A DNA stretch of 64,000 bases from an uncultured Candidatus Peribacteria bacterium (GCA_964433325.1 CAYSPY010000005.1:15953-79952); one strand, 5' to 3'; shown: positions 8,866 through 60,314, numbered from the stretch's first letter. Numbers and translations are program-made. The notes: generated by a model from the letters alone, not told the origin.

Positions 8866-9933
8866 ATGAATCGCACTCTTCCCCTTATTGCATTTTCTCT
8901 TTTGACACTATCGGCCTGTTCTTTTGGCTCATCCGATCCTGCCGGCACAACTGCTGGTGAGGTCACATCTTCTGCATCGTCGGAGGCAATGCCACCCGAA
9001 ACAAAGAACGTGCTGTACCGTGGAACACTAGAGAAGCAGGGTGTAAGTATTTTTATGGAAGGAACACACAGGCTTCGCCTGGAAGATGGGCGATACGTTT
9101 TGCTTTCCAGTGAAACAGTCGACCTTGGTGAATACATTGGGATGAATGTAGAAGTATTTGGCGCTGTACGCCCAACAGTAGAACAAGGCGGACTCATTAT
9201 GCGTGTGGAGCGTGTGACATCCCTTGAATCTTCATCAAGCTCTTCGTCGAGCGTGTCTTCCTCTACCTTCTGCGGTGGAATCGCTGCATTCAAGTGTCCA
9301 GATGGACAAGAGTGTATTGATGACCCGAACGATAGCTGTGACCCAATGAATGGTGGCGCTGACTGTGGTGGGATTTGTGTAGAGGCTTCATCATCATCCG
9401 AAGAAGTAAGCAGTTCATCTGTAGCCCCAGTAGTACCATCCTCGATTTCTTCGATTGCTTTGATTTCCTCTAAATCATCAGCATCTTCTAAGTCGTCTGT
9501 ATCCTCCGTAGCTGCAGCTCCAACATCCATCCCATCCGACTACCAAGCATCTGGTGAGCTTTCTGCAAAGGCTGCTGTAATGGCGAAGGATAAGATGGAT
9601 GCTTCTAACTGGACACAAGAGTACTGCTCAACCCACATGGGCTTCTGCTTCCCTGTTCACCGCAACTGGTGGTTCAAATCCTTTGGTGCGACATCTTCAA
9701 CATTCTGGCACATCGAAATTGGCCCATCAGAAATGAATAACTTGGGCGAAGGACCACTTACAGTAGATGTAGTAAGCGGCAACACCGCATCTGATGGATC
9801 CGTATCTGTACAAGGAGACACAGTTGTCGGCCTTCGTGCTTGGACAGGTGGTCGCCATATCGAAGTACGCGCCCCAGCTAGCCTAGAAGCTGCAGTTCGC
9901 TACCTCACCGAGCAGATTAAGCCCGCTCAATAA
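8866..9933 (+). CDS. Secreted lipoprotein with Ser-rich linkers and a Cys-rich module; function unknown
   Basis: Signal/lipobox LLTLSAC, poly-Ser linkers, CGGIAAFKCPDGQECIDDPNDSCDPMNGGADCGGIC, and a Trp-rich C-terminal domain. The 223-aa ORF on the opposite strand is a mirror artefact. Confidence 0.65.
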   Translation: MNRTLPLIAFSLLTLSACSFGSSDPAGTTAGEVTSSASSEAMPPETKNVLYRGTLEKQGVSIFMEGTHRLRLEDGRYVLLSSETVDLGEYIGMNVEVFGAVRPTVEQGGLIMRVERVTSLESSSSSSSSVSSSTFCGGIAAFKCPDGQECIDDPNDSCDPMNGGADCGGICVEASSSSEEVSSSSVAPVVPSSISSIALISSKSSASSKSSVSSVAAAPTSIPSDYQASGELSAKAAVMAKDKMDASNWTQEYCSTHMGFCFPVHRNWWFKSFGATSSTFWHIEIGPSEMNNLGEGPLTVDVVSGNTASDGSVSVQGDTVVGLRAWTGGRHIEVRAPASLEAAVRYLTEQIKPAQ

Positions 9934-15545: not shown

Positions 15546-15656
15546 GTGTTCATCGACATTACACCATATTCGTATGGCGCTGCATACTGCGCGAAACGGC
15601 AAAATCGGGCTATAATAAAAGCGAACAGATTCAAATTTCCTGAATTCTGCATTCTC

Positions 15657-15674
15657 AATTCTCCATTCTCAATT
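15657..15674 (+). promoter_or_regulatory. 18-nt motif AATTCTCCATTCTCAATT upstream of clpP, also found upstream of thrS
   Basis: Exact 18-mer 53 nt upstream of the clpP ATG. Its reverse complement lies at 60249-60266, 50 nt upstream of the minus-strand thrS ATG, so both have the same orientation relative to the gene. Confidence 0.4.
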
Positions 15675-16317: not shown

Positions 16318-16340
16318 TTATTCCTCTTGATTCCTAAAAA

Positions 16341-16372
16341 GCAGACACATCGAAATATCTGTCTGCTTTTTT
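16341..16372 (+). terminator. Rho-independent terminator after clpP
   Basis: GCAGACA-catcgaaatatc-TGTCTGC followed by TTTTTT. It is preceded by AAAAA, so it may act in both directions. Confidence 0.7.
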
Positions 16373-17041: not shown

Positions 17042-17251
17042 AAAATTCTGAAGGAAGAAATGGAAAGTGGAATGTAGTGTGCAACAACTGTGTTCATTCC
17101 TCAACGGTTGAATGTGTAGATGCTCTTGCAACGAATGAAGAAGAGTTACGAGATAAGGCTATGAGAACACGATCTTCGAAGTAGCAAAAACATTCCTATG
17201 ACCGTCGAACCACGTAGCTCACAGCTATGTTTTCCGCTATGCTCTGCGCCA

Positions 17252-18379
17252 ATGTTTGAACTCCTTGCCACCACTCCATCGGGCCGACGCGGTCGCATTC
17301 ATACCATGCACGGCGTGATTGAAACACCTGTGTTCTTCCCGGTAGGAACAGCAGGGGCGATGCGTGGGATTCTGCTGGATGATATTAAAACATTGGGGTC
17401 CGATGTACTCCTCTGCAATACGTATCACTTACATCTACAACCAAACGAAGATGTAATCGAAGAAGCAGGAGGTCTGCATAAATTTATCGGATGGGACGGA
17501 CCGATCCTTACCGACTCTGGTGGATTCCAAGTTTTCTCGCTCGAAGGAATTCGAAAGATGCACGAGCATGGCGTGGAGTTCCAATCACACATCGATGGAT
17601 CGAAACATTTCTTGGGCCCAGAAGAAGCCATGCGCATTCAGCACAAACTAGGCAGCGACATCATCATGTGCTTCGACGAGTGCCCACCATCAACCGCGCC
17701 GAGAGCAAAACAAATTGAGGCAGTGGATAGAACACTGCGCTGGGCGAAGGAATGTAAGAATTGGCATGAAGAATTGAAGATGCAGAAGAGTCAGACGAAT
17801 CAGAGGAAAACCTCCTCTACATCTTCATCTTCTGATTCCTCTGAATCCTCTCCGTTACTCTTCGGTATCGTCCAGGGCGGACTTGAACAGGACTTGCGAC
17901 GAAAGTGCGCCGAAGAATTAATTGCTATCGGGTTTGATGGATACGCAGTAGGAGGACTCGCCGTTGGTGAAACAGAAAAAGAAATGTACGACGTGCTCGA
18001 TTATGTGTGCCCAGTACTCCCCGAAGATAAGCCACGCTATTTGATGGGCGTGGGGAAAATTACGCAGCATCGCGAAGCAGTAAAACGCGGCATCGATTTA
18101 TTTGATTGCGTGCTGCCCATGCGCGAAGCACGTCACGGTAAATTATATTTGAGCGATGGAACAGATATCCGCATTCGCAATGCGCAATACACGCACGACC
18201 ATTCCCCTATCGACTTGGGTTCAACTTCGAGTCTCAGCAAAAAACATACGAAGAGTTACCTGAGCCACTTGTTCCGCATTGGTGAGCGCAGTGCCGAAAC
18301 CATCGCCTGCATGCAGAACATGGCAGTGACCTTGGAAGCAATGAAGAAATTACGTGAGGAAATAGAAGCTCATACATAA
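17252..18379 (+). CDS. tgt: Queuine tRNA-ribosyltransferase (tRNA-guanine transglycosylase) with a Ser-rich insertion
   Basis: TPVFFPVGTAGAM, LTDSGGFQVFS, FGIVQGG, GYAVGGLAVGE, YLMGVG and the zinc-site region are collinear with Tgt. Start trimmed to the ATG at 17252. An extra ..KMQKSQTNQRKTSSTSSSSDSSESS.. segment is present. Confidence 0.92.
   Translation: MFELLATTPSGRRGRIHTMHGVIETPVFFPVGTAGAMRGILLDDIKTLGSDVLLCNTYHLHLQPNEDVIEEAGGLHKFIGWDGPILTDSGGFQVFSLEGIRKMHEHGVEFQSHIDGSKHFLGPEEAMRIQHKLGSDIIMCFDECPPSTAPRAKQIEAVDRTLRWAKECKNWHEELKMQKSQTNQRKTSSTSSSSDSSESSPLLFGIVQGGLEQDLRRKCAEELIAIGFDGYAVGGLAVGETEKEMYDVLDYVCPVLPEDKPRYLMGVGKITQHREAVKRGIDLFDCVLPMREARHGKLYLSDGTDIRIRNAQYTHDHSPIDLGSTSSLSKKHTKSYLSHLFRIGERSAETIACMQNMAVTLEAMKKLREEIEAHT
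17776..17851 (+). repeat. Copy of a word-repeat palindromic element lying in frame inside tgt
   Basis: GAAGATGCAGAAGAGTCAGACGAA (17776-17799) matches 55533-55556 at 22/24. TTCCTCTGAATCCTCT (17836-17851) matches 55585-55600 at 16/16. TACATCTTCA is also shared. Confidence 0.6.
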
Positions 18380-52683: not shown

Positions 52684-52819
52684 AGATACGTGAAAAGATG
52701 ATAAGCACCAGAACTATAGCATAATAAATGACTGATTGTCATCATTACGGCAATCTAGCTAGTCAGCTTCTCAACTTCTTAGCTTCCTAGCCAGCTAACT
52801 AGCTTACTAGCTGACCAGC

Positions 52820-54112
52820 TTACTTCGTCAAATCCCCAATAATATCGCGACTTGGGGCAGCTGCTGGTGCTTGAGGAATATCTTTCGGCGCTGCGGTGGG
52901 AGTGGCAGGGACAGGGGCTGCTGCGGGTTTTGAGACGCGATCGTTATCTTCTTGGCGCTGCTTTTGCATTGCCTCTTTAAGCGTACGAATGCACTCCAAC
53001 ACTTGCAGCTGGAAGTTATCAAAGCTCGATACTTTAAAACCAGATGCACGTGCATGGCCGCCTCCACCGAATGTGCGAGCGGACAATTGCGACACATCCA
53101 CCGCTGGGGAAGAACGCATGCTTGCCTTGAGCCCTCCTTCTTCGAGTTCGGTAAAGAGTACGTAGACATCAGCATCGGGAATGGTCGAAATAAGCTCATC
53201 CAAAATGCCATGAGTTTCTTTGCTGGTTGCTTCCATCTCTGCCAAGTCTTCCTTGCTAATCGCCGACCACACAATGCGTGCTGTACTATCAATTTGAATG
53301 CGATTAAGAGCACGGCCCCAAATGCGCAGCGTTGAAAGCGGCTTTGTTTTATAGACGTGCTGAATAATCTCCTGCTGTCTCGCCCCCTTTTCGAGGAGCT
53401 CTGCTGCAACCTCCAGTGATCGTGGCGTTGTATTGGGGTTCTGGAAGCTGCGGGTATCAGTAATAAGACCGGTCAGGAGCAACGTCGCCATGTCGGCCGT
53501 AATCTTATCTTTAAACGACGGAACTTGCGTAAACCAGCTGTAGAGCACTTCGGTCGCACTCGCAGCTGTTGGGTCGATCAGCTGTAACTGCCCATGCAGG
53601 GTGTTACTGATGTGATGGTCAATATTGAGAATCGGCACACTGGAAAAGAGGTCCAAGTGGTCTTTGTAGAACGAACCAAGCAAGGCAAGATCGGCCGTAT
53701 CCACCACCACGATAAGATCCCAACCGTACCCTCCTTCGCTCAGCATAATCTGCTGTTGCTTAATTTGCCCCTTTTTGGGCATCACGATGATATTCACTTT
53801 GTTGTCTTCAACGGTGTAGCGAAGCTTATCGACTTCGACTCCGTCATCCAGGTTAATAGTGACAATAAAGTCCTTATTGTCGCTAATCTGCTCATCGAGC
53901 TTTTCAAACCCTGGCAGGAACTTAAGTGCTTCTGGTTTGGTATCAGGGCAAATAACTGTCACATCCTTCCCCATCGCCGTGAACATCTGATAACAGGCAA
54001 GAGCGCTGCTGAGTCCATCGGGGTCCACATTGGCATGTGGGATGATGAGCAGCTTTTGATGCTGCTCGATCAGACTGGTTGCTGCCTGTAAGGACTGGGG
54101 AGATAGACTCAT
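52820..54112 (-). CDS. DHH/DHHA1 family phosphoesterase (NrnA-like) with Pro/Ala-rich C-terminal tail
   Basis: IIPHANVDPDGLSSALA, NIDHHISN (DHH), GGGHARASGF (DHHA1). Confidence 0.85.
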   Translation of the reverse strand: MSLSPQSLQAATSLIEQHQKLLIIPHANVDPDGLSSALACYQMFTAMGKDVTVICPDTKPEALKFLPGFEKLDEQISDNKDFIVTINLDDGVEVDKLRYTVEDNKVNIIVMPKKGQIKQQQIMLSEGGYGWDLIVVVDTADLALLGSFYKDHLDLFSSVPILNIDHHISNTLHGQLQLIDPTAASATEVLYSWFTQVPSFKDKITADMATLLLTGLITDTRSFQNPNTTPRSLEVAAELLEKGARQQEIIQHVYKTKPLSTLRIWGRALNRIQIDSTARIVWSAISKEDLAEMEATSKETHGILDELISTIPDADVYVLFTELEEGGLKASMRSSPAVDVSQLSARTFGGGGHARASGFKVSSFDNFQLQVLECIRTLKEAMQKQRQEDNDRVSKPAAAPVPATPTAAPKDIPQAPAAAPSRDIIGDLTK

Positions 54113-55518: not shown

Positions 55519-55620
55519 ATGAGGAGGAATCAGAAGATGCAGAAGGGTCAGAAGAAAAGAGGGAAATGGCTCTGATTAAGAAACTTCCTCTGAATCCTCT
55601 GCATCTTCTACATCTTCACT
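55519..55620. repeat. Intergenic palindromic word-repeat element, related to the insertion in tgt
   Basis: Left arm GAGGAGGAATCAGAAGATGCAGAAGGGTCAGAAGAA and right arm CTTCCTCTGAATCCTCTGCATCTTCTACATCTTC are imperfectly complementary. It shares a 24-mer (22/24) and a 16-mer (16/16) with 17776-17851. Confidence 0.65.
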
Positions 55621-56533
55621 AGAACCACTTCTTCCACATGAAATACACAATAAAGATGACAAGAATCCCACCCATCGATCCGCCAATAATCTCGAACGCG
55701 AGCGGATTATCTTGTAGTGGCAACGGAACGTTCATACCGTAGAAGCTGGCAATAAAGGTAAGCGGAACCATTGTCACCGAGAAAATCGTGAGCAGGCGGA
55801 TAATTTCATTGGTGCGATGCGTCAGCCACGATTCATGAGTCTCCTGCAAGACATCGCTCATTTCCTTGGCGGTATCAAGCAGTGACCACTGGCGCTCAAT
55901 GGCGTCGGAAACGTCATCAAAGTAAATGCGTAGATCTTCGGGGATAAGCGCACGGCTACGGTGTTGCAATTGTGCAACCACTGTTCGTTGTGGGAAGAGA
56001 ATACTGCGCATGGTAATGATATTGCGCTTTAAACTCAGAATGCTTCGCAAAATCTTCTTTTGACGCTCTTCATTCTCGAAGAGTTCCACCTCCATACGAC
56101 GCAGGTCTTTCATGAGCGACTCAATAAGGGGGAACCCTTGATCGAACAGAAGATCGAGTAGCTTATACAGAAAAAAGCCTGACCCACGATCAAAGTATTC
56201 ATCACGCTTCTTTTCTGATGCTTCCAAATTCTTTCGCAATTGATTCAATGCGCCAGACTTATCATCCGAAAAGGTGACAATAAAATCGCTGCCAAGAAAC
56301 ACATTGATATCTTCTTTAATCACTTTCGACCCTGGTTTCACTGGTACGTGGAACACACCGAACAAATAGGATTCATATTCCTCAATTTTCGGACGTTCGT
56401 TTTCACTTAAACAGTCTTCGATATCCAGCGCATGAAACCCAAATCGCTTTTGCAATTCTATGAGCTCGTCTTCATCGGTATGCACTAAGTGATACCACGT
56501 AATACCATGAGATGTCAGGCTGCGAAGCGGCAT
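55619..56533 (-). CDS. corA: Magnesium/cobalt transporter CorA
   Basis: C-terminal two TM helices with the FYGMNV signature. The N-terminal cytoplasmic domain is collinear with CorA. Confidence 0.9.
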   Translation of the reverse strand: MPLRSLTSHGITWYHLVHTDEDELIELQKRFGFHALDIEDCLSENERPKIEEYESYLFGVFHVPVKPGSKVIKEDINVFLGSDFIVTFSDDKSGALNQLRKNLEASEKKRDEYFDRGSGFFLYKLLDLLFDQGFPLIESLMKDLRRMEVELFENEERQKKILRSILSLKRNIITMRSILFPQRTVVAQLQHRSRALIPEDLRIYFDDVSDAIERQWSLLDTAKEMSDVLQETHESWLTHRTNEIIRLLTIFSVTMVPLTFIASFYGMNVPLPLQDNPLAFEIIGGSMGGILVIFIVYFMWKKWF

Positions 56534-60199: not shown

Positions 60200-60248
60200 T
60201 TATACTGAGTAAGGTCGAAGTATGGCTGAATGATAATGGAAAATTGAG

Positions 60249-60266
60249 AATTGAGAATGGAGAATT
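60249..60266 (-). promoter_or_regulatory. Second copy of the 18-nt motif AATTCTCCATTCTCAATT (read on the minus strand) upstream of thrS
   Basis: Plus strand AATTGAGAATGGAGAATT is the exact reverse complement of 15657-15674. It lies 50 nt upstream of the thrS ATG. Confidence 0.4.
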
Positions 60267-60314
60267 AAGAATTACACCTCCGTTAGGTCGATCTCATGAC
60301 GAGAAAAGCATGCA

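What the first reader, a model, noticed from the sequence alone, without database searches (positions are those of the whole stretch)
17771..17860. Palindromic word-repeat element apparently inserted in frame into tgt (analogous to Rickettsia palindromic elements)
Compared with canonical Tgt, the segment between RWA and LFGI is about 16-20 residues longer. It encodes a hydrophilic Ser-rich peptide (..ELKMQKSQTNQRKTSSTSSSSDSSESS..).

The DNA encoding it shares a 24-mer (22/24: GAAGATGCAGAAGAGTCAGACGAA) and an exact 16-mer (TTCCTCTGAATCCTCT) with the intergenic hairpin element at 55519-55620. The words TACATCTTCA and TCTGATT are also shared.

The same selfish or structural DNA element therefore appears to exist both between genes and inside an essential gene without breaking the frame. 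That behaviour is known for RPEs in Rickettsia.
Basis: partly seen in the sequence, partly recalled or inferred. Interest (0 to 1): 0.6.

Follow-up and report, generated by a model that had tools for sequence, protein, structure and literature searches.

The report
Word-built hairpin repeat inside tgt
A surface loop of the tRNA-modifying enzyme Tgt in this Peribacteria (CPR) genome carries, in frame, a hairpin built from repeated 9-letter DNA words; the same words form hairpins at gene ends elsewhere in the genome, and relatives carry hairpins at the same spot spelled in their own genome's words.

Summary
Window 17776-17851, inside tgt, is an imperfect hairpin. Its first arm is GAAGATGCA-GAAGAGTCA-GACGAATCA-GAGGAA, followed by a 4-nt loop and a second arm of the reverse-complement words. 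The element after the corA stop (55524-55617) is built the same way.

Both belong to a family of 23 arms (5 hairpins) of the 9-nt word GARGAWNCA in this 1.26-Mb Peribacteraceae genome. Shuffles of the window give 0 matches.

It is not a discrete RPE-like mobile element, and it is not a recent insertion.
- Copies share only the words, not a full-length consensus.
- Copy number changes in 9-nt steps between species.
- Most sites are orthologous in congeners.
- No Y1 (RAYT) transposase and no target-site duplication were found.

The Tgt loop is an old hot spot. Of 57 Peribacteria Tgt loops, 25 are expanded and 16 are strong hairpins. In five genomes tested, the loop uses that genome's own dispersed word family. 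The hairpins are more stable than the encoded peptides require.

Best reading: a lineage-specific class of minisatellite-armed palindromes. They mostly sit at gene 3' ends, are terminator-like, and are remodelled by slippage and template switching. They are tolerated in frame in a disordered surface loop. I found no description of this in the literature I searched.

The parts
17198..18379 (+). tgt (queuine tRNA-ribosyltransferase), 393 aa. It is the host gene of the in-frame element.
   Evidence: ORF. It matches Z. mobilis Tgt structures at E 3e-101. The catalytic Asp residues are conserved: D106, D160 and D303 are invariant in alignment A1.
17776..17808 (+). Arm 1 of the tgt hairpin: GAAGATGCA GAAGAGTCA GACGAATCA GAGGAA (9-nt words GARGAWNCA). 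It is read in the +1 frame as KMQKSQTNQRK.
   Evidence: (D4). The model shows this peptide as an extension of helix 169-205.
17809..17812 (+). 4-nt loop (AACC) of the tgt hairpin.
17813..17851 (+). Arm 2 of the tgt hairpin: reverse-complement words (TCCTCTACATCTTCATCTTCTGATTCCTCTGAATCCTCT). It is read as SSTSSSSDSSESS.
   Evidence: Residues 208-215 have pLDDT below 50.
55524..55556 (+). Arm 1 of the intergenic hairpin at the corA 3' end: GAGGAATCA GAAGATGCA GAAGGGTCA GAAGAA.
   Evidence: (I15).
55557..55584 (.). Loop of the intergenic hairpin (28 nt).
55585..55617 (-). Arm 2 of the intergenic hairpin. On the minus (corA) strand it reads GAAGATGTA GAAGATGCA GAGGATTCA GAGGAA and begins 2 nt after the corA stop. 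On that strand the hairpin is followed by a TTTTT run.
55619..56533 (-). corA-like magnesium transporter gene. Its stop codon abuts the intergenic hairpin.
   Evidence: GMN motif and C-terminal tail.

Best explanation
The tgt insert is one copy of a Peribacteraceae-specific class of repeats. Each repeat is a short tandem array of a degenerate 7-9-nt word, alone or followed by an inverted array, so that a long imperfect hairpin forms.

In this genome the commonest word is GARGAWNCA. Because the unit is 9 nt and has no stop codon in most frames, arrays can grow, shrink and sit inside ORFs without breaking the frame.

Shown:
- The family is dispersed in the genome.
- It occurs both after stop codons and in frame in Tgt. 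Single arrays also lie in a FemAB-like protein, a DsbD/thioredoxin-like protein, DnaX, and the tails of ribosomal proteins S17 and L22.
- Word number changes in 9-nt steps between species at orthologous sites.
- The Tgt loop site is occupied in many lineages, by hairpins that use each genome's own word family.
- The palindromy is stronger than the peptide sequences require.

Inferred:
- The arrays turn over by replication slippage.
- Complementarity between arms is restored by intra-hairpin template switching.
- Copies exchange sequence, or are replaced, within a genome. This may be favoured by the absence of MutS.
- Intergenic copies act as transcript-end hairpins (terminator or 3' stabiliser).
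- The tgt copy has no role for the enzyme. It persists because it falls in a disordered surface loop, where the purine arm reads as a basic helix extension and the pyrimidine arm as a Ser-rich linker.
For: Family and chance.
- 23 arms, including 5 hairpins, in G000.
- 36 pattern hits against 0-1 for the reversed control.
- 0.00 expected in shuffles of the window.

Anatomy. Clean copies in G004 and G024 have 4-5 words, a loop, and 4-5 reverse-complement words. All 24 GAR-type hairpins I inspected have the purine arm first.

Context. By my own gene calls, intergenic copies start 1-9 nt after stop codons. 13 of about 17 intergenic word hairpins of all families abut a stop codon. A T-run follows the ftsQ-like 3' hairpin in G001 and in G006 contig C77, and TTTTT follows the corA hairpin.

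Behaviour like a variable-number tandem repeat, in frame. The FemAB-like site has 0 words in G003, 4 in G000, 7 in G001 and a hairpin in G004. The S17 tail varies by 24-27 nt.

Vertical inheritance. Every site for which both G001 flanks were found is filled in G001. One site is filled in G000, G001 and G006 contig C77 but empty in G003 and G006 contig C12, with no target-site duplication.

Tgt loop.
- Of 57 distinct loops, 20 are minimal, 25 are expanded and 16 are hairpins (dG -26 to -51 kcal/mol, z -3 to -8).
- The loop's words match that genome's own family in G000 and G004, G024, G019, and G005 and G007.
- Word spectra agree: G000 uses TCA/GCA and G024 uses TCC/ACC, and each tgt loop follows its genome.
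- On synonymous-codon resampling, z is -2.5 to -5.8.

Surface loop. In the AlphaFold2 model (mean pLDDT 85.8) confidence drops to 57-61 over residues 201-220.

Distribution. GAR-type arrays occur in 8 of 12 sampled Peribacteraceae genomes (up to 135 hits). The 109 genomes from other families of the class have 0-4 hits.

Permissive background. The MutS_V domain is absent in 12 of 13 Peribacteraceae genomes. No Y1/RAYT transposase is present.
Against: - No direct evidence of slippage within a population. Only assembled contigs were available, and they showed no polymorphism.
- No RNA data exist, so the terminator role is inferred only from position and T-runs. Several copies lack a T-run.
- In-situ evolution alone does not explain why dispersed copies within a genome share one word variant (49 of 49 words end in A in G000; 47 of 49 end in C in G024). 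It also does not explain why G019 and L041 carry unrelated word families at the same loop. Some inter-copy exchange, or real insertion, is needed, and its mechanism is unknown.
- MutS is absent from repeat-poor genomes too (G041, G063, G105).
- Some coding arms read in the E-D-S frame may be ordinary acidic low-complexity sequence. The GyrB acidic loop is ancestral, and only G000 and G001 spell it in these words.
Confidence: 0.6

Rival explanations
1. A discrete selfish mobile element (MITE- or RPE-like) transposed into tgt. Each lineage's own family has independently invaded the same permissive loop, perhaps by targeting existing hairpins.
For: - Dispersed, genome-specific families with strongly differing copy numbers between congeners.
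- Family-specific arm polarity: 24 of 24 GAR-type hairpins have the purine arm first, and the four ACGAANNA hairpins read from coordinates have the T-rich arm first.
- Unrelated word families sit at the same Tgt loop. G019 has a GGTAGG hairpin next to a decayed KMQK-type remnant. L041 has GGTACCAAG words in a subgroup whose relatives have short loops.
- Two subfamilies (NCA and NCC) coexist in G075 and G115.
Against: - Copies share only 9-nt words, in variable number and order.
- No terminal inverted repeats beyond the arms, and no target-site duplication at the one filled/empty site examined.
- No Y1/RAYT transposase.
- Every G000 site that could be checked is orthologously filled in G001.
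- Size changes come in single-word steps.
Confidence: 0.17
2. A selected RNA structure inside the tgt mRNA, such as a processing, stability or translational-pausing hairpin. It would be conserved as a structure while its sequence drifts.
For: - 16 of 57 orthologues keep a strong hairpin at the same codon position despite different sequences.
- The hairpins are more stable than the peptides require.
Against: - 20 of 57 orthologues have no insert. The closest relative, G001, has only one arm (dG -3.8).
- The G000 copy itself is partly decayed (z -2.5).
- The sequences follow genome-wide families that mostly lie outside genes.
- No Rfam family matches.
Confidence: 0.1
3. Ordinary low-complexity coding sequence: a basic plus Ser-rich disordered linker. 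Its resemblance to the intergenic element would come from composition and codon bias.
For: - The loop is hypervariable and disordered.
- E/D/S-rich stretches in GyrB, DnaX and ribosomal-protein tails use the same words.
Against: - The same words form non-coding hairpins right after stop codons.
- They are read in at least three different frames.
- Shuffles give 0 matches.
- Synonymous resampling rejects a peptide-only origin.
- Relatives use 8-nt words, which have no constant reading frame.
Confidence: 0.08
4. The words are recognition sequences for a trans-acting system whose specificity differs between genomes, for example DNA-uptake-sequence-like dialects or an array-binding protein. That system would drive the words into all tolerant sites.
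For: - Genome-specific dialects occur at orthologous addresses, both as inverted pairs at gene ends and in tolerant coding loops.
- The variable positions are nearly uniform within a genome.
Against: - At least eight unrelated word families coexist in G000.
- There are tens of copies, not hundreds or thousands.
- Tandem arrays are not a feature of known uptake sequences.
- No candidate receptor was identified.
Confidence: 0.05

Closest known systems
Rickettsia palindromic elements (RPE)
   Same: Palindromic repeats found both between genes and in frame inside housekeeping genes, where they add a surface peptide without destroying function (RPE description from PMC10969869).
   Different: - RPEs are about 150 bp, fall into families with a conserved full-length sequence, and encode a conserved peptide.
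- Here copies share only 9-nt words, in variable number and order.
- Copies are read in several frames.
- They change length word by word.
- They are old at their sites.
REP / BIME / REPIN elements and terminator-like repeats such as SPRITE
   Same: Species-specific imperfect palindromes dispersed at gene 3' ends. They are thought to act as terminators or mRNA stabilisers.
   Different: - No RAYT (Y1) transposase.
- No GTAG/CGTC head.
- Arms are tandem arrays of a short word, not a unique palindrome.
- They occur in frame in ORFs.
Cyanobacterial STRR heptamer arrays and mycobacterial MIRU-type interspersed tandem repeats (from general knowledge)
   Same: Short tandem word arrays dispersed at many loci, lineage-specific, mostly at gene junctions, with variable copy number.
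   Different: - Here the arrays are typically paired with an inverted array to give a hairpin.
- Several word families coexist in one genome.
- They are found inside conserved enzymes.
Quasipalindrome template-switch mutagenesis and slipped-strand mispairing (mechanism, from general knowledge)
   Same: It explains the growth and shrinkage of arrays, and how an imperfect palindrome is kept complementary without selection.
   Different: It is a mutational mechanism, not an element family. It does not by itself explain why dispersed loci share the same words.
DNA uptake sequences (DUS/USS dialects; from general knowledge)
   Same: Genome-specific short words found as inverted pairs at terminators and in tolerant coding regions. 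Dialects differ between related species.
   Different: - Uptake sequences are single 10-12-mers present in hundreds to thousands of copies, with one dialect per genome.
- Here there are tandem arrays, tens of copies and many families.

Membership tests
Rickettsia palindromic element (RPE) | Palindromic DNA able to form a hairpin | tested here: met
Rickettsia palindromic element (RPE) | In-frame presence inside a conserved ORF, in a surface region, without disrupting the protein | tested here: met
   The ORF is intact and the catalytic residues are conserved. The insert has low pLDDT at the periphery of the model.
Rickettsia palindromic element (RPE) | Element of about 100-150 bp with a conserved full-length consensus and a conserved encoded peptide across copies | tested here: not met
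   Copies share only 9-nt words. The number, order and reading frame of the words vary.
REP/REPIN | Associated RAYT (Y1 transposase) gene in the genome | tested here: not met
   PF01797 is absent from G000. The control genomes were positive.
REP/REPIN | Short extragenic imperfect palindrome with a conserved GTAG/CGTC head | tested here: not met
   The arms begin with GARGA words and no such head is present. The definition is from the abstract of PMC3733652.
MITE | Defined ends with target-site duplication at filled-versus-empty sites | tested here: inconclusive
   Only one filled/empty site was examined (ftsQ-like 3' end). It showed no target-site duplication.
MITE | A parent insertion sequence or transposase with matching terminal repeats | not tested
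   Only Y1 transposases were searched.
Minisatellite / variable-number tandem repeat | Tandem array of a short unit whose copy number differs between related genomes in whole units | tested here: met
   The FemAB-like site has 0, 4 or 7 words. The S17 tail and the Tgt loop also vary.
Intrinsic (rho-independent) terminator | Hairpin immediately 3' of a gene followed by a U-tract | tested here: inconclusive
   Intergenic copies hug stop codons. A T-run follows in some but not all. No RNA data are available. The tgt copy has no T-run.
Rfam RNA families | Match at the gathering score | tested here: not met
   Only sub-threshold chance hits.
Bacterial Tgt (queuine tRNA-ribosyltransferase) | Catalytic aspartates (Z. 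mobilis D102, D156, D280) | tested here: met
Bacterial Tgt (queuine tRNA-ribosyltransferase) | Zinc site CxCxxC...H (Z. mobilis C318, C320, C323, H349) | tested here: not met
   Replaced by SxSxxS...Q in all Peribacteria orthologues. Outgroups keep the site.

The most novel reading that the evidence does not exclude
Peribacteraceae genomes keep 'addresses' (gene 3' ends and a few permissive protein loops such as the Tgt loop) that are repeatedly rewritten with lineage-specific short words arranged as hairpins. This would imply an undescribed homogenising or homing mechanism: hairpin-targeted gene conversion, an unknown mobilising enzyme, or a word-recognising factor. It would be a new class of bacterial repeat that also acts as a steady source of in-frame peptide insertions in conserved enzymes.
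Probability: 0.3. Interest if true: 0.75.

Novelty: new variant of a known kind. Interest (0 to 1): 0.6.

Why it matters
- Genome dynamics. CPR genomes are small and gene-dense and are generally thought to be poor in repeats. A lineage-wide system of word-built hairpins that marks gene ends and leaks into coding sequence would be a new piece of CPR genome biology.
- Gene boundaries. The hairpins are a likely clue to how these organisms end or stabilise transcripts.
- Protein evolution. The case shows how DNA-level palindromes create disordered inserts in conserved enzymes (Tgt, PheT, FemAB-like). It is a natural example parallel to the Rickettsia RPEs but with different mechanics.
- Practical points. 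These repeats break metagenome assemblies, since contigs end at them. They inflate apparent protein 'insertions'. They could also serve as strain markers.

Tried and rejected
- Gapless inverted-repeat census of the genome. It was too strict for word hairpins with periodic mismatches and returned only 10 hits.
- Census by folding energy alone in 100-nt windows. It did not discriminate at 50% GC (438 loci). It became useful only after requiring periodic arms.
- GyrB as a second test of the 'own words' rule. The acidic loop is ancestral and is not spelled in the genome's own words in G019 or G004, so this test did not support the rule. It shows that some coding arms read in the E-D-S frame may be ordinary acidic sequence.
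- Reads. Only Logan contigs were available, and they showed no polymorphism in the element. No RNA runs were found.
- Rfam: nothing above threshold.
- PARCEL elements (PMC2996958). These are 25-residue amphipathic repeats, a different thing.
- The Peribacteria genome paper (PMC4736985) does not mention such repeats.
- The PheT insert checked against solved structures. The alignments start after the insert, so its size (about 14 residues) is only roughly supported.

Full report
**1. The observation**

The window lies in a 1.26-Mb, 14-contig genome. Public records of its closest relatives are labelled Candidatus Peribacteria, Peribacteraceae or Peregrinibacteria, which belong to the CPR.

tgt is window 17198-18379 (+), 393 aa. 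It matches Zymomonas mobilis Tgt structures at E about 1e-101. In that alignment the stretch between RWA and LFGI has 37 residues here, against 18 in Z. mobilis.

The extra DNA reads as follows:
- arm 1, 17776-17808: GAAGATGCA GAAGAGTCA GACGAATCA GAGGAA
- loop: AACC
- arm 2, 17813-17851: TCCTCTACATCTTCATCTTCTGATTCCTCTGAATCCTCT

Arm 1 is three and a half copies of a 9-nt word. Arm 2 is made of the reverse-complement words. The segment folds as a hairpin: DNA -17.3 kcal/mol with z -3.0, and RNA -26.6 kcal/mol.

The element at 55524-55617 begins 2 nt from the corA stop codon and is built in the same way. The pattern GARGAWNCA x 2.7, at up to 2 mismatches, hits only these two loci in the window: 7 hits, against 0.00 in 100 shuffles. 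The exact 16-mer is likewise non-random.

**2. A genome-wide family**

A scan of the whole genome for three or more consecutive GARGAWNCA words found 23 arms. Five pairs form hairpins:
- C2:19367-19470
- C3:169727-169829
- C3:170797-170881
- tgt
- the corA 3' end

A sixth hairpin uses a TTA word variant (C4:67082).

By my own crude gene calls (1,045 genes, 88% coding), the intergenic copies start 1-9 nt after stop codons.

Single arrays lie inside ORFs and are read in at least three frames:
- acidic EDSEDAEDS in GyrB and a DsbD/thioredoxin-like protein;
- Ser-rich SSESSESS (the antisense reading) in DnaX, a FemAB-like protein, an M23 peptidase, and the C-terminal tails of L22 and S17;
- basic KMQKTQRIQ, the frame also used by tgt arm 1.

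So the repeated unit is defined at the DNA level, not the peptide level.

**3. Other word families in the same genome**

I folded the genome in 100-nt windows and kept single hairpins whose two arms are periodic with the same period. This gave 20 loci belonging to at least eight word families. Examples are GGAAGTAA (8 nt, five loci), CAGATNT (7 nt), GGAGAAT (7 nt), GGGTAnnTT (9 nt), an AGCT-word hairpin at window 52749-52829, and ACAGAATA (8 nt).

A GCGGATA (7 nt) hairpin lies in frame inside PheT. 13 of about 17 intergenic word hairpins abut a stop codon within 21 nt.

Family A has a 9-nt period and no stops in most frames. Family B (GGAAGTAA) meets TAA in every frame. That fits selection filtering which families can survive inside genes. 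This last point is inference.

**4. The Tgt loop in relatives**

I extracted the loop from 57 distinct Tgt orthologues.
- 20 have a minimal loop of 11-16 residues after the WAxxCK anchor, for example KEHEKLKGKKTSPL.
- 25 are expanded to 24-45 residues.
- 16 fold as strong hairpins, with dG -26 to -51 kcal/mol and z -3 to -8.

The words differ between genomes:

| Locus (genome) | Words in the Tgt loop |
|---|---|
| L005 (G004) | GAAGAT type |
| L007 (G024), L064, L052 | GARGARNCC |
| L012 (G019) | GGTAGG / CCTACC |
| L041 | GGTACCAAG |
| L056 | GACTCCAAA |
| L004 (G002) | CGAAGCT |
| L009, L010 (G005, G007) | tandem 8-nt ACGAANNA |

Whole-genome pattern searches showed that each of these is that genome's own dispersed family. 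Reversed-pattern controls were about 0.

| Pattern | Hits by genome |
|---|---|
| GARGAWNCA | G000 36, G001 45, G004 63; 0-1 in G005, G007, G024, G017, G019 |
| GARGARNCC | G024 75, G017 16, G000 0 |
| AACCTACCY | G019 35, all others 0 |
| ACGAANNA | G005 45, G007 54 |

In every case the tgt-loop coordinates are among the hits.

Word spectra agree with this. In G000 the third triplet is TCA (27) or GCA (19), and all 49 words end in A. In G024 it is TCC (23), ACC (18) or GCC (6). Each tgt loop follows its own genome.

I resampled synonymous codons while keeping each peptide fixed. The observed hairpins are more stable than the peptide demands: z -2.5 in G000, -5.8 in G004, -5.5 in G024, -3.7 in G019 and -4.7 in L056.

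**5. The same rule at intergenic addresses**

Downstream of corA, a hairpin starts at the stop codon in several genomes:
- G000, with GAAGAT words;
- G006, with AAAGATTCA-type words;
- G007, with TGTCAAA words;
- G003 and G002, with other hairpins.

Downstream of a yidC-like gene, G000 has a single array (C3:179808) and G024 has a full hairpin in G024's words (L094). After clpP, G004 has a word hairpin (L087). G000 has a canonical terminator there, preceded by TTCCTCTTGATTCCT, which looks like a decayed pyrimidine arm.

**6. Mode of evolution**

I ran an 'empty-site' BLAST, using the joined flanks of 14 G000 elements against five congeners, and then aligned the hits.

Every G000 site for which both flanks were found in G001 is also filled in G001.

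One site, the ftsQ-like 3' end, is filled in G000, G001 and G006 contig C77 but empty in G003 and G006 contig C12. There is no target-site duplication. In G001 and G006-C77 a T-run follows the hairpin, as in an intrinsic terminator.

In the FemAB-like ORF, G003 has 0 words, G000 has 4, G001 has 7, and G004 has a hairpin. The S17 tail varies by 24-27 nt.

The elements are therefore mostly inherited vertically. They behave as 9-nt minisatellites, and they are occasionally lost.

In G002 the Tgt arms appear to have been rebuilt around a conserved central CGA(G)AAAAAGAA by amplification of a local TCGAAG motif. This comes from my reading and points to remodelling in situ.

In-situ change alone does not explain the uniformity of words within a genome. 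It also does not explain unrelated families at the same loop: G019 has a GGTAGG hairpin next to a decayed MMQKEKLQK remnant, and L041 has an insert in a subgroup whose relatives have short loops. Some exchange between copies, or true insertion, must also occur.

All 24 GAR-type hairpins I inspected have the purine arm first. The four ACGAANNA hairpins I could read from coordinates have the T-rich arm first. So polarity is specific to each family.

**7. Distribution and background**

GAR-type 9-nt arrays occur in 8 of 12 sampled Peribacteraceae genomes, with up to 135 hits in G075. The 109 genomes from 32 other families of the same class have 0-4 hits.

G075 and G115 hold both the NCA and NCC subfamilies. 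Each listed array is internally homogeneous.

No Y1/RAYT transposase is present in G000. The MutS_V domain is absent from 12 of 13 Peribacteraceae genomes, while 11 of 14 control genomes were positive. That is a permissive background for repeat instability and for recombination between diverged copies. But MutS is also absent from repeat-poor genomes, so its absence is not sufficient.

**8. Structure**

An AlphaFold2 model built from a 32-sequence alignment has mean pLDDT 85.8 and pTM 0.85.
- Helix 169-205 runs on through the basic arm-1 peptide.
- Residues 208-215 (Ser-rich) have pLDDT below 50.
- Strand 220-225 (LFGIVQ) resumes the barrel.

The insert is a helix extension plus a disordered linker in the position of the canonical helix-to-strand loop. 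I did not test how close it lies to the tRNA or to the dimer interface.

**9. Comparison with known systems**

It works like an RPE in one respect: a palindromic repeat tolerated in frame in housekeeping proteins (PMC10969869). It fails the defining RPE feature of a conserved full-length element and peptide.

It resembles REP/BIME elements and terminator-like repeats in position and species specificity. It lacks RAYT and the GTAG/CGTC head.

It resembles STRR or MIRU-type dispersed tandem arrays in being built from words (general knowledge). It adds the inverted arm and the occupancy of coding sequence.

Neither the Peribacteria genome paper nor my other searches describe it. No Rfam family matches.

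**10. Verdict**

The 'RPE-like insertion' label is only partly right.

I rate it a new variant of a known kind: dispersed palindromic or minisatellite repeats. The unexplained feature is that the same addresses carry different words in different genomes.

The evidence has clear limits. All genomes are metagenome-assembled. There is no transcript or population data. The gene calls are my own crude ones. The mechanism is inferred.

Noticed in passing
window 18197-18214 and 18305-18325 (Tgt residues about 341-346 and 373): All four zinc ligands of bacterial Tgt (Z. mobilis C318, C320, C323, H349) are replaced by Ser, Ser, Ser and Gln. The same holds in every Peribacteria orthologue aligned, while a Lentisphaeraceae and a Paceibacterota outgroup keep CxCxxC...H. 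The catalytic aspartates are conserved, so this looks like a lineage-wide zinc-less Tgt.
   Followed up: partly
G000 contig C8:18692-18778 (outside the window): A second in-frame word hairpin lies in a housekeeping enzyme. PheT (phenylalanyl-tRNA synthetase beta subunit) carries a hairpin of 7-nt GCGGATA/GGAAAGC words that encodes about KTESGKRKATSKKADRDPLSAIRFS, just before the conserved VTPP motif (RNA dG -37.5 kcal/mol).
   Followed up: partly
window 52749-52829; window 15640-15674 and 60235-60269: Other word-built hairpins or arms of different families lie in the window. One is an AGCT-word (8-nt) hairpin at a gene 3' end. The others are GAGAATT/GGAGAAT (7-nt) words, which recur as hairpins at C3:175730 and C7:35427.
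   Followed up: partly
whole genome G000 and 12 relatives: The MutS_V domain (PF00488) is not detectable in 12 of 13 Peribacteraceae genomes searched. The single hit, in G001, is at a contig end.
   Followed up: no
G001 contigs C1 and C98; G006 contigs C12 and C77: The two flanks of one G000 element (C4:5403-5456) lie on different G001 contigs, so assemblies appear to break at these repeats. The G006 bin holds two versions of the ftsQ-like locus, one filled and one empty, which suggests two strains in one bin.
   Followed up: no
window 16318-16372: After the clpP stop there is a short TTCCTCTTGATTCCT stretch that looks like a decayed pyrimidine arm. It is followed by a canonical terminator (hairpin plus T-run). 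In G004 the same site has a full word hairpin.
   Followed up: partly
window 9465-9497: An acidic coding stretch (DDLEDADDLEE on the minus strand) is 82% similar to arm 2 of the corA element. It is probably ordinary acidic low-complexity sequence, or a diverged single array.
   Followed up: no
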